Shown piece after piece: positions 7,359-63,574 of a stretch of 64,000 nucleotides of DNA; position 1 is the first letter of the stretch, and each line of letters starts with the position of its first letter. Source of the stretch: Promethearchaeota archaeon (GTDB lineage Archaea > Asgardarchaeota > Lokiarchaeia > Sigyniarchaeales > SOKP01); NCBI GenBank assembly GCA_019057795.1, contig JAHLWS010000073.1:32001-96000 (forward strand). The letters are read 5' to 3'. The position numbers and the translations under genes were made by a program. Under the pieces are notes generated by a model, which did no database searches, was not told the DNA's origin, and saw only the letters and a list, made by a program, of their open reading frames with translations.

Positions 7359-7460
7359 AGCCCGGTGGTGTAGTGGACAAGCATCTGGGGCCTTGAACCC
7401 CGTGACCACGGTTCGAAAACTATCAAGTTAACTCGATAATCGAAATTCCGTGCCGGGCTA
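7359..7460 (+). tRNA. tRNA-Gln(UUG) with a 29-nt BHB intron in the T-loop (7418-7446, position 59/60)
   Basis: Acceptor AGCCCGG/CCGGGCT (A1-U72, typical of archaeal Gln); anticodon TTG at 7393-7395; T-arm CACGG-TTCGAA|T-CCGTG restored after intron removal; BHB helix TTCG/CGAA with bulges AAA and ATT. Confidence 0.9.
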
Positions 7461-63181: not shown

Positions 63182-63214
63182 TTTCCTCTTGAAATATAGA
63201 AAAAAGAAAAAGAG

Positions 63215-63394
63215 TGGGCCATCGGGGACTTGAACCCCGGATCTCAGGCTTTTACTGATATGGACATTTTAAATTATTTTGTCTGTCCATGGGTCAATTA
63301 TAAGACCTGCGCTTGTTGACCAAGCTTCAATTAAGCCTTGTTAACCATTTCAGTAAACAAGATAAATTCTCGTTTAAAACTGAGCTAATGGCCC
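63215..63394 (-). tRNA. tRNA-Ile(UAU) with three BHB introns (63377-63348, 63341-63315, 63297-63250)
   Basis: Acceptor GGGCCAT/ATGGCCC plus A73; T-arm CGGGG-TTCAAGT-CCCCG; anticodon arm CAGGT-CTTATAA-GCCTG (TAT at 63302-63300); each intron has a 4-bp helix, 3-nt bulges and an intron stem. Confidence 0.88.
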
Positions 63395-63574
63395 TGTGCT
63401 TAATTTATATTCTGTATTTTTAAATACTTTTTTTATTTTACTTACATTATAAAGTCAAAAAGCACAAAATAATAAAAATTTTTTTATTGGTGTGCTCTAA
63501 TTAAATATATAATTAAAATCAAAAAATGATATTATACATAATATTTAAAAAAACACAAATGGGTGTAAAAACAA

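What the first reader, a model, noticed from the sequence alone, without database searches (positions are those of the whole stretch)
63215..63394. tRNA-Ile with UAU anticodon (eukaryote-like AUA decoding)
Seen: the anticodon loop is CT-TAT-AA. U34 pairs with an intron A in the BHB helix (TTAT/GTAA), which argues against a CAT-to-TAT sequencing error. Established: most archaea read AUA with tRNA-Ile2(CAU) modified to agmatidine by TiaS, and UAU is a rare exception. Eukaryotes use tRNA-Ile(UAU), and in yeast its anticodon pseudouridylation depends on the intron. Inference: this lineage may have switched to the eukaryotic solution, with the 48-nt intron possibly needed for anticodon modification.
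Basis: partly seen in the sequence, partly recalled or inferred. Interest (0 to 1): 0.72.

Follow-up and report, generated by a model that had tools for sequence, protein, structure and literature searches.

The report
Three-intron Asgard tRNA-Ile(UAU), no TiaS
This is a real isoleucine tRNA gene with the rare UAU anticodon, hidden from standard finders by three small introns, and it appears to be the only reader of the very common AUA codon in a Loki-type Asgard archaeon whose whole order lacks the usual archaeal enzyme TiaS; a few other archaea are already known to read AUA this way.

Summary
Window 63215-63394 (minus strand) is a tRNA gene with anticodon loop CTTATAA. It carries three introns, not one: 30 nt and 27 nt in the D-loop around a 6-nt micro-exon, plus the 48-nt intron beside the anticodon. 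The spliced 75-nt product is called tRNA-Ile(tat) by ARAGORN.

Twenty-four orthologues (17 distinct mature sequences) keep the loop unchanged. Nine of 21 stem pairs show compensatory double changes, and intron content varies from one to three.

TiaS is not found in this genome, in 0 of 41 genomes of the order, or in 0 of 45 of the family, but it is present in 115 of 201 sampled genomes of the phylum. The UAU anticodon arm is found in 43/45 family and 3/4 sister-family genomes, and only at chance level elsewhere.

A manual inventory found 44 of about 47 expected tRNAs. Only two carry CAU: the initiator and elongator Met.

AUA is the 8th commonest codon and interchanges with AUU/AUC, not AUG.

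The "eukaryote-like, intron-dependent modification" idea has no support. CAU relatives in TiaS-bearing Asgards have the same intron, and only one TruA-family gene exists.

This is a new member of a known kind (Nanoarchaeum, Korarchaeum). The scan has found the same thing repeatedly in other Asgard genomes.

The parts
63215..63394 (-). complete tRNA-Ile(UAU) gene, 180 nt: four exons and three introns; CCA not encoded
63378..63394 (-). exon 1 (tRNA positions 1-17): acceptor 5' strand, D-stem 5' strand, start of D-loop
   Evidence: D arm defined by the orthologues of G019 and G023, which lack D-loop introns
63348..63377 (-). intron 1, 30 nt, in the D-loop. BHB-like: 4-bp helix TCAG/CTGA, 3-nt bulges TTT and AAT, 9-bp inner hairpin; the outer helix is nearly missing (relaxed form)
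   Evidence: present in only about 8 of 24 orthologues
63342..63347 (-). exon 2, 6-nt micro-exon TGGTTA (G18 G19 region of the D-loop)
   Evidence: continuous with its flanks in the G019 and G023 orthologues
63315..63341 (-). intron 2, 27 nt, at the D-loop/D-stem junction (21/22). BHB: helix TGGT/GTCA, bulges TAA and ACA, inner helix CAAG/CTTG. The outer helix forms only once intron 1 is gone (inferred)
   Evidence: precisely absent in the G019 and G023 orthologues
63298..63314 (-). exon 3: D-stem 3' strand, G26, anticodon stem 5' strand, loop CTTATAA
63300..63302 (-). anticodon TAT (UAU), positions 34-36
   Evidence: invariant in 17 distinct orthologous sequences
63250..63297 (-). intron 3, 48 nt, beside the anticodon (37/38; by sequence equally 38/39). 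Helix TTAT/GTAA, bulges AAT and AAG, inner helices TGA/TCA and ATGGACA/TGTCCAT. Two unpaired bases separate it from the anticodon stem (relaxed BHB)
   Evidence: present in every orthologue of both families examined
63215..63249 (-). exon 4: anticodon stem 3' strand, variable loop AGATC, T arm, acceptor 3' strand, discriminator A73
63415..63424 (-). TATA-box-like TTTAAAAATA centred about 26 nt upstream of position 1 (inferred archaeal promoter)
   Evidence: read directly; not tested
63200..63213 (-). T-rich tract directly after the discriminator base (inferred archaeal terminator)
   Evidence: read directly; not tested

Best explanation
The locus is a functional, independently transcribed pre-tRNA gene. 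The archaeal splicing endonuclease removes three introns and a ligase joins the exons, giving a 75-nt tRNA-Ile with anticodon UAU. This tRNA reads AUA directly by a U34-A pair and is the only AUA reader in this organism. The ancestor of this Loki-type order lost TiaS and converted (or replaced) its tRNA-Ile2(CAU) to UAU. Shown: the gene, its exon-intron structure, its conservation and covariation, no TiaS, TilS or third CAU tRNA detected, heavy use of AUA, and AUA behaving as an isoleucine codon. Inferred: transcription, the order of splicing (intron 1 before intron 2), charging by the eukaryote/archaeal-type IleRS, and whatever keeps U34 from misreading AUG (a U34 modification, competition with tRNA-Met, or a ribosomal property, as in Mycoplasma mobile).
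For: Structure: ARAGORN calls the spliced product tRNA-Ile(tat). Introns of [30, 27, 48] nt were recovered independently, each has a BHB-like motif, and the precursor z-score is -6.58.

Selection: 24 orthologues give 17 distinct mature sequences. Nine of 21 pairs have compensatory double changes and the loop CTTATAA is invariant. Intron content varies from 1 to 3 while the exons are kept.

TiaS: the Pfam TiaS_FLD model finds nothing in the own genome (100% complete), while the archaeal controls ring. It finds 0/41 in the order, including three closed genomes, and 0/45 in the family against 115/201 in the phylum sample. tblastn with four full Asgard TiaS proteins gives a best E of 0.06. The TilS-specific domain is absent.

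CAU tRNAs: the manual inventory holds 44 tRNAs, with only initiator and elongator Met carrying CAU. blastn-short finds no paralogue of the UAU gene or of Asgard Ile2(CAU) genes.

Distribution: the anticodon-arm 14-mer GCGCNRGTCTTATA occurs in 43/45 family and 3/4 sister-family genomes, and at chance level in TiaS-bearing families. Full genes were read in six sister-family genomes, one of them closed.

Codons: AUA is 33.4 per 1000 codons, the 8th commonest, and 1.8 times as frequent as AUG. Window ATA codons change to ATT/ATC 49 times and to ATG 3 times in relatives.

Splicing capacity: there are two EndA-domain genes of about 200 aa. That fits the two-subunit type, which cuts non-canonical introns (PMC5829648 abstract).
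Against: The tRNA inventory is hand-made and lacks Asn(GTT), Cys(GCA) and Arg(CCG). A heavily disrupted or unassembled third CAU gene therefore cannot be strictly excluded.

The assembly is a MAG in 87 contigs with 7.5% contamination.

Intron 3 has a relaxed rather than strict BHB, and intron 1 lacks the outer helix.

Nothing here shows how AUG misreading is avoided.

The UAU tRNA is only slightly closer to Asgard Ile2(CAU) genes (75-77% identity) than to its own tRNA-Ile(GAU) (72%), so its origin from Ile2 is not resolved.
Confidence: 0.85

Rival explanations
1. The TiaS/tRNA-Ile2(CAU) route still exists in this organism but was missed, because the genes are unassembled, too divergent or heavily disrupted. 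The UAU tRNA would then be a redundant second AUA reader, as in some Firmicutes that hold both tilS and a TAT gene.
For: The genome is a MAG of 87 contigs. My inventory misses three expected tRNAs. tRNA genes here can carry up to three introns, so a fourth disrupted CAU gene could escape. Genomes holding both routes are reported for bacteria (PMC3575796).
Against: TiaS_FLD finds nothing in 0/41 genomes of the order, including three closed ones, and in 0/45 of the family. The same search finds it in 115/201 of the phylum and in all four archaeal controls. Full-length Asgard TiaS proteins give no tblastn hit. No Ile2-like paralogue appears by blastn-short.
Confidence: 0.05
2. This is a eukaryote-type system: U34 and U36 are pseudouridylated to give a psi-A-psi anticodon by a Pus1-like enzyme that needs the intron, so the intron beside the anticodon is kept for that reason.
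For: The 37/38 intron is present in every UAU orthologue of both families examined, while the D-loop and variable-loop introns come and go. The anticodon pairs with the intron in the precursor. In yeasts, psi-34/36 of tRNA-Ile(UAU) is made by Pus1 on the intron-containing precursor (established knowledge; PMC11912914 for S. pombe Pus1).
Against: The most similar CAU tRNA genes of TiaS-bearing Asgard genomes carry an intron at the same place, so the intron is inherited and not tied to UAU. Anticodon-intron pairing is a general property of canonical archaeal introns. Only one TruA/Pus1-family gene is present, as in other archaea. The partner tRNA is Ile(GAU), not AAU.
Confidence: 0.07
3. The gene is a decaying or non-functional tRNA-like relic, for example one disabled by intron insertions, and AUA is read in some other way.
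For: Three introns and a 6-nt micro-exon are extreme. Standard finders reject the gene. No expression data are available.
Against: The exons are under strong purifying selection with compensatory changes in 9 of 21 pairs, while the introns diverge. Many other tRNA genes in this genome are equally disrupted. AUA makes up 3.3% of all codons and no other possible reader exists.
Confidence: 0.02

Closest known systems
tRNA-Ile3(UAU) of Nanoarchaeum equitans and Candidatus Korarchaeum cryptofilum (PMC6000648; PMC8450103; PMC3575796 introduction)
   Same: An archaeal genome without tiaS and without tRNA-Ile2(CAU), with a single TAT-anticodon tRNA gene as the AUA reader. The Korarchaeum gene also has an intron.
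   Different: Here the trait is shared by a whole species-rich Asgard order rather than single odd genomes. The gene carries up to three introns. The body looks at least as close to Asgard Ile2(CAU) genes as to Ile(GAU), whereas the Korarchaeum gene is reported as a copy of its GAU tRNA (PMC6000648).
Mycoplasma mobile tRNA-Ile2(UAU) (PMC3575796)
   Same: The C34-modifying enzyme and the CAU gene are lost, and a UAU tRNA decodes AUA in an A+T-rich genome where AUA is common.
   Different: That system is bacterial, with bacterial-type IleRS adapted by a Trp-to-Arg change, unmodified U34, and a ribosome that rejects AUG. None of these points could be tested here. Archaea already have the eukaryote-type IleRS.
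Eukaryotic cytosolic tRNA-Ile(UAU), anticodon psi-A-psi, Pus1- and intron-dependent (PMC11912914; PMC6582322)
   Same: UAU anticodon, an intron next to the anticodon, eukaryote/archaeal-type IleRS, and no C34 chemistry.
   Different: No evidence of pseudouridylation. Only one TruA-family gene. The major Ile tRNA is GAU, not AAU/IAU. The intron is also present in CAU relatives. Splicing is BHB-based, with additional D-loop introns.
Canonical archaeal tRNA-Ile2(CAU) plus TiaS (agmatidine) (Ikeuchi 2010 and Mandal 2010, as cited in PMC3575796)
   Same: Same job, reading AUA. Similar tRNA body: the 5' end GGGCCA(Y)-TA-GCTCAG is shared with the CAU genes of TiaS-bearing Asgards, and the intron sits at the same position.
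   Different: T instead of C at position 34, and no TiaS in the genome, family or order.
Multi-intron tRNA genes of Thermoproteales and other Asgard archaea (PMC4090602; PMC11291895)
   Same: Several BHB introns at non-canonical positions and a two-gene EndA.
   Different: Nothing essential. The 6-nt micro-exon and the apparent dependence of intron 2's outer helix on prior removal of intron 1 are details of this gene.

Membership tests
tRNA-Ile(UAU) ('tRNA-Ile3') AUA reader of TiaS/TilS-less prokaryotes | Cloverleaf tRNA with genomic anticodon TAT | tested here: met
   ARAGORN on the spliced product gives tRNA-Ile(tat). Covariation is seen in 9 of 21 pairs.
tRNA-Ile(UAU) ('tRNA-Ile3') AUA reader of TiaS/TilS-less prokaryotes | No TiaS (or TilS) gene in the genome | tested here: met
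   The positive controls ring.
tRNA-Ile(UAU) ('tRNA-Ile3') AUA reader of TiaS/TilS-less prokaryotes | No tRNA-Ile2(CAU): only initiator and elongator Met carry CAU | tested here: met
   Searches found two CAU genes among 44 tRNAs. Caveat: the inventory is hand-made, lacks three non-CAU tRNAs, and comes from a MAG.
tRNA-Ile(UAU) ('tRNA-Ile3') AUA reader of TiaS/TilS-less prokaryotes | Charged with isoleucine; AUA still means Ile | tested here: inconclusive
   Charging is not testable. Indirect evidence: ATA codons interchange with ATT/ATC (49) far more often than with ATG (3) in relatives.
tRNA-Ile(UAU) ('tRNA-Ile3') AUA reader of TiaS/TilS-less prokaryotes | Expressed and processed to a mature tRNA | not testable with these tools
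Archaeal BHB-intron (multi-intron) tRNA genes | Bulge-helix-bulge or relaxed HBh' motif at each exon-intron pair | tested here: met
   Intron 2 has a full motif once intron 1 is removed. Introns 1 and 3 are relaxed forms.
Archaeal BHB-intron (multi-intron) tRNA genes | Introns precisely absent from some orthologues | tested here: met
   The G019 orthologue has only the 37/38 intron, and G023 has no D-loop intron.
Archaeal BHB-intron (multi-intron) tRNA genes | Splicing endonuclease able to cut non-canonical sites | tested here: inconclusive
   Two EndA-domain genes of about 200 aa fit the two-subunit type. The subunit type was not verified.
Eukaryotic tRNA-Ile(UAU) psi-A-psi system | Dedicated Pus1-type pseudouridine synthase | tested here: inconclusive
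   There is one TruA-family gene only, as in ordinary archaea. Its specificity is unknown.
Eukaryotic tRNA-Ile(UAU) psi-A-psi system | Major isoleucine tRNA with AAU (inosine) anticodon | tested here: not met
   The other Ile tRNA is GAU (C53:72832-72905).
Eukaryotic tRNA-Ile(UAU) psi-A-psi system | Intron tied specifically to the UAU anticodon | tested here: not met
   The CAU relatives in TiaS-bearing Asgards carry an intron at the same position.
Eukaryotic tRNA-Ile(UAU) psi-A-psi system | Pseudouridine at positions 34 and 36 | not testable with these tools
   This needs mass spectrometry or pseudouridine mapping.

The most novel reading that the evidence does not exclude
U34 (and U36) of this tRNA is modified on the intron-containing precursor, as in eukaryotes. 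AUA decoding by an intron-bearing UAU tRNA would then have been in place in Asgard archaea before eukaryogenesis and been inherited by eukaryotes, rather than invented by them.
Probability: 0.06. Interest if true: 0.85.

Novelty: new member of a known kind. Interest (0 to 1): 0.42.

Why it matters
Separating AUA (Ile) from AUG (Met) is one of the hardest cases in decoding. The textbook archaeal answer is agmatidine made by TiaS. Here a whole, species-rich Asgard order, including closed genomes of its sister family, does without TiaS. It relies on a plain UAU gene in A+T-rich genomes where AUA is about 3% of all codons.

That gives a natural system, with cultured relatives, for asking how an archaeal ribosome or U34 modification avoids misreading AUG. 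It also bears on whether the eukaryotic use of tRNA-Ile(UAU) is ancestral or convergent.

Practically, the gene is missed by default tRNA finders. Annotations of these genomes will therefore wrongly appear to lack an AUA reader.

Tried and rejected
- ARAGORN, with or without intron mode, on the raw locus finds nothing or a false "tRNA-Stop(tta)" with a 90-nt intron. Rfam at gathering score finds nothing.
- The pattern CTTATAA..GGTTCRANYCC across the phylum gave many false hits. All 13 inspected loci from TiaS-bearing families fail the anticodon-stem test. Hits in family f9 are a conserved non-cloverleaf element. A hit in f14 lies inside the intron of another tRNA.
- The BLAST "orthologue" in G030 (L024) is a tRNA-Ala.
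- A 28-nt match of intron 1 to C53:602-629 lies in an intact deacetylase-like ORF and is chance, not a mobile intron copy.
- For the TiaS-less families f14, f15, f18, f22 and f4 I could not find the AUA reader with my patterns. This is left open.
- The identity matrix of mature tRNAs does not resolve whether the UAU gene descends from Ile2(CAU) or Ile(GAU).
- No complex or structure prediction was run, as none bears on the question.

Full report
**What is in the sequence.** The gene lies on the minus strand, from window 63394 down to 63215. It shows a 7-bp acceptor stem (GGGCCAT/ATGGCCC) with discriminator A, a standard T arm (CGGGG-TTCAAGT-CCCCG), and an anticodon stem CAGGT/GCCTG closing the loop CTTATAA.

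Between the loop and the 3' strand of the stem lie 48 nt. The helix TTAT/GTAA, in which U34 pairs with an intron A, is real.

The gene is 180 nt long, so about 57 more bases are extra. They sit in the D-loop. ARAGORN and Rfam fail on the locus for this reason.

**Exon-intron structure.** BLAST of the 180 nt against 40 relatives found orthologues in 18 of 24 genomes of the same genus, at 80-99% identity. These orthologues have different intron sets.

- One orthologue (G023) has an uninterrupted D arm, GCTT-AGCCTGGTTA-AAGC.
- Another (G019) has only the intron beside the anticodon, with D arm GCTC-AGATTGGTTA-AAGC.

Together these define the mature D arm. They show that the window's gene has two D-loop introns around a 6-nt micro-exon TGGTTA:

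| Intron | Window coordinates | Length |
|---|---|---|
| 1 | 63348-63377 | 30 nt |
| 2 | 63315-63341 | 27 nt |
| 3 | 63250-63297 | 48 nt |

A splice-aware alignment to the mature sequence recovers [30, 27, 48] without my guidance.

Each intron has a bulge-helix-bulge-like motif:

- **Intron 1:** 4-bp helix TCAG/CTGA, 3-nt bulges, a 9-bp inner hairpin, and almost no outer helix.
- **Intron 2:** helix TGGT/GTCA, bulges TAA and ACA, inner helix CAAG/CTTG. Its outer helix (G15-C, U16.G, U17-A) can form only after intron 1 is removed. I read this as a hint of ordered splicing; that is an inference.
- **Intron 3:** helix TTAT/GTAA, bulges AAT and AAG, and two unpaired bases toward the anticodon stem, so a relaxed form.

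The genome has two EndA-domain genes of about 200 codons. That fits the two-subunit endonuclease, which cuts non-canonical introns (PMC5829648). The spliced 75-nt product is called tRNA-Ile(tat) by ARAGORN. The precursor folds with z = -6.58.

A TATA-like box sits about 26 nt upstream and a T-tract lies directly downstream. Both suggest a separate transcription unit; this is an inference.

**Is it under selection?** Twenty-four orthologous genes from both families (f1 and f2) give 17 distinct mature sequences. Of 21 stem pairs, 11 vary and 9 show compensatory double changes. The only recurrent non-pair is C13.A22. The loop CTTATAA never varies.

Intron content varies among orthologues:

| Intron | Present in |
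|---|---|
| 37/38 intron | all orthologues |
| second D-loop intron | most |
| first D-loop intron | about a third |
| intron at the variable loop | three genes |

This rules out a sequencing error and a pseudogene.

**TiaS and CAU tRNAs.**

- The Pfam TiaS_FLD model finds nothing in the window's genome (100% complete, 7.5% contamination), while it rings in all four archaeal control genomes.
- It finds nothing in 41 genomes of the same order, three of them closed.
- In a sample of 201 genomes of the phylum at 80% completeness or better, 115 have TiaS. The window's family has 0 of 45. Six other families also have none.
- tblastn with four full-length Asgard TiaS proteins against the genome gives no hit better than E = 0.06.
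- The TilS-specific domain is absent.

For the tRNAs I wrote a finder that allows introns in the T-loop, which are common here. I read the anticodons by hand. It yields 44 archaeal-type tRNAs. That is every expected anticodon except Asn(GTT), Cys(GCA) and Arg(CCG).

Only two genes carry CAU:

- the initiator, C70:174352-174458, with a T-loop intron;
- an elongator-type Met tRNA, C65:137711-137848.

The isoleucine tRNAs are GAU (C53:72832-72905) and this UAU gene. blastn-short with the UAU tRNA and with CAU relatives from TiaS-bearing Asgards finds no paralogue.

**Distribution.** The 14-mer GCGCNRGTCTTATA covers tRNA positions 24-37. The reversed control gives 13 hits in 201 genomes. The pattern occurs in 43 of 45 genomes of the family and 3 of 4 of the sister family. 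In TiaS-bearing families it is at chance level: 0/24, 3/48, 0/12 and 0/7.

I read full UAU genes in six genomes of the sister family, including a closed 4.4-Mb genome. Each has a single 37/38 intron. Three small genomes of another TiaS-less family also show a CTTATAA tRNA.

For four further TiaS-less families my patterns found nothing, so their AUA reader is not identified here.

Record titles of close relatives name them Promethearchaeota/Promethearchaeia MAGs, for example Loki_b31. This is a Loki-type Asgard archaeon.

**Meaning of AUA.** In 1817 ORFs of 300 codons or more, AUA is 33.4 per 1000 codons. That is a third of all Ile codons, the 8th commonest codon, and 1.8 times as frequent as AUG.

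In window ORFs aligned to three relatives, ATA changes to ATT or ATC 49 times, to GTN about 19 times, and to ATG 3 times. ATG mostly stays ATG. AUA therefore behaves as isoleucine.

**The eukaryote-like reading.** The CAU tRNA genes most like this one come from TiaS-bearing Asgard genomes (G066, G108, G092). They share the 5' end GGGCCA(Y)-TA-GCTCAG. They also carry an intron at the same 37/38 position.

The intron was therefore there before C34 became U, and it is not evidence for intron-dependent modification. Further points against the reading:

- The genome has a single TruA/Pus1-family gene.
- The major Ile tRNA is GAU, not AAU.

Identity values do not resolve the origin of the gene: 75-77% to those CAU genes against 72% to the organism's own Ile(GAU).

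An earlier, unchecked note of this scan places a TiaS gene cluster in Hodarchaeales. If correct, that would argue that the Loki-type UAU is convergent with eukaryotes rather than ancestral. I did not test it.

**Comparison with what is known.** Archaea lacking tiaS and carrying a TAT gene are already described: Nanoarchaeum equitans and Korarchaeum cryptofilum, the only two among 167 and 217 archaeal genomes surveyed (PMC6000648; PMC8450103). Bacteria such as Mycoplasma mobile do the same. There U34 is unmodified, IleRS carries an adaptive Arg, and the ribosome rejects AUG (PMC3575796).

Four full-text searches found no paper linking Asgard archaea with TiaS, agmatidine or tRNA-Ile(UAU). This scan, however, has already reported the same arrangement in several other Asgard genomes.

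**Verdict.** The gene is real, and the replacement of the TiaS route is well supported. It is a new member of a known kind. Interest is moderate, because the trait is order-wide in the archaeal group nearest to eukaryotes and is testable in culture. No RNA data could be consulted.

Noticed in passing
window 7359-7460 (+) = C73:39359-39460: A second tRNA gene in the window: tRNA-Gln(UUG), with A1-U72 and an intron of about 29 nt inside the T-loop. ARAGORN and Rfam at gathering score miss it.
   Followed up: partly
genome-wide, e.g. C70:174352-174458, C70:127969-128072, C78:135689-135792, C34:23319-23421, C52:67395-67497: At least a dozen tRNA genes, including the initiator, Lys(UUU), Asp, Ala(GGC) and Arg(GCG), carry an intron of about 30 nt at the same place in the T-loop, after TTCRA. 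Default finders therefore report only about 27-30 of about 47 tRNAs.
   Followed up: partly
C65:137711-137848 (+), outside the window: The only elongator tRNA-Met gene found has two introns and an odd T-loop, CTCATAT instead of TTCRANY: no T54 and no A58.
   Followed up: no
L134 (G036) and L135 (G025), sister family: The tRNA-Ile(UAU) genes of two sister-family genomes (genera g9 and g2) have A at position 54 (T-loop ATCGAAG), a feature otherwise known from eukaryotic initiator tRNAs.
   Followed up: no
L065, L066, L067 (three genomes of TiaS-bearing family f9): A conserved element of about 90 nt ends in GGTTCAAATCC and contains CTTATAA, but has no cloverleaf. It may be a tRNA-derived fragment or an integration site.
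   Followed up: no
C24:45545-45614 (+), outside the window: An isolated tRNA 3'-end-like fragment (GGGGGTTCGAATCC) sits directly after a coding region. It may be the remnant of an integration site.
   Followed up: no
L145 and L147 (G035, sister family): One MAG holds two different tRNA-Ile(UAU) genes on separate small contigs. This is either a real duplication or two mixed populations.
   Followed up: no
C50:14246-14316 and C79:40878-40950, outside the window: Two extra intron-less tRNA(UUG)-like genes have atypical acceptor stems. They may belong to the 7.5% contamination of the bin.
   Followed up: no
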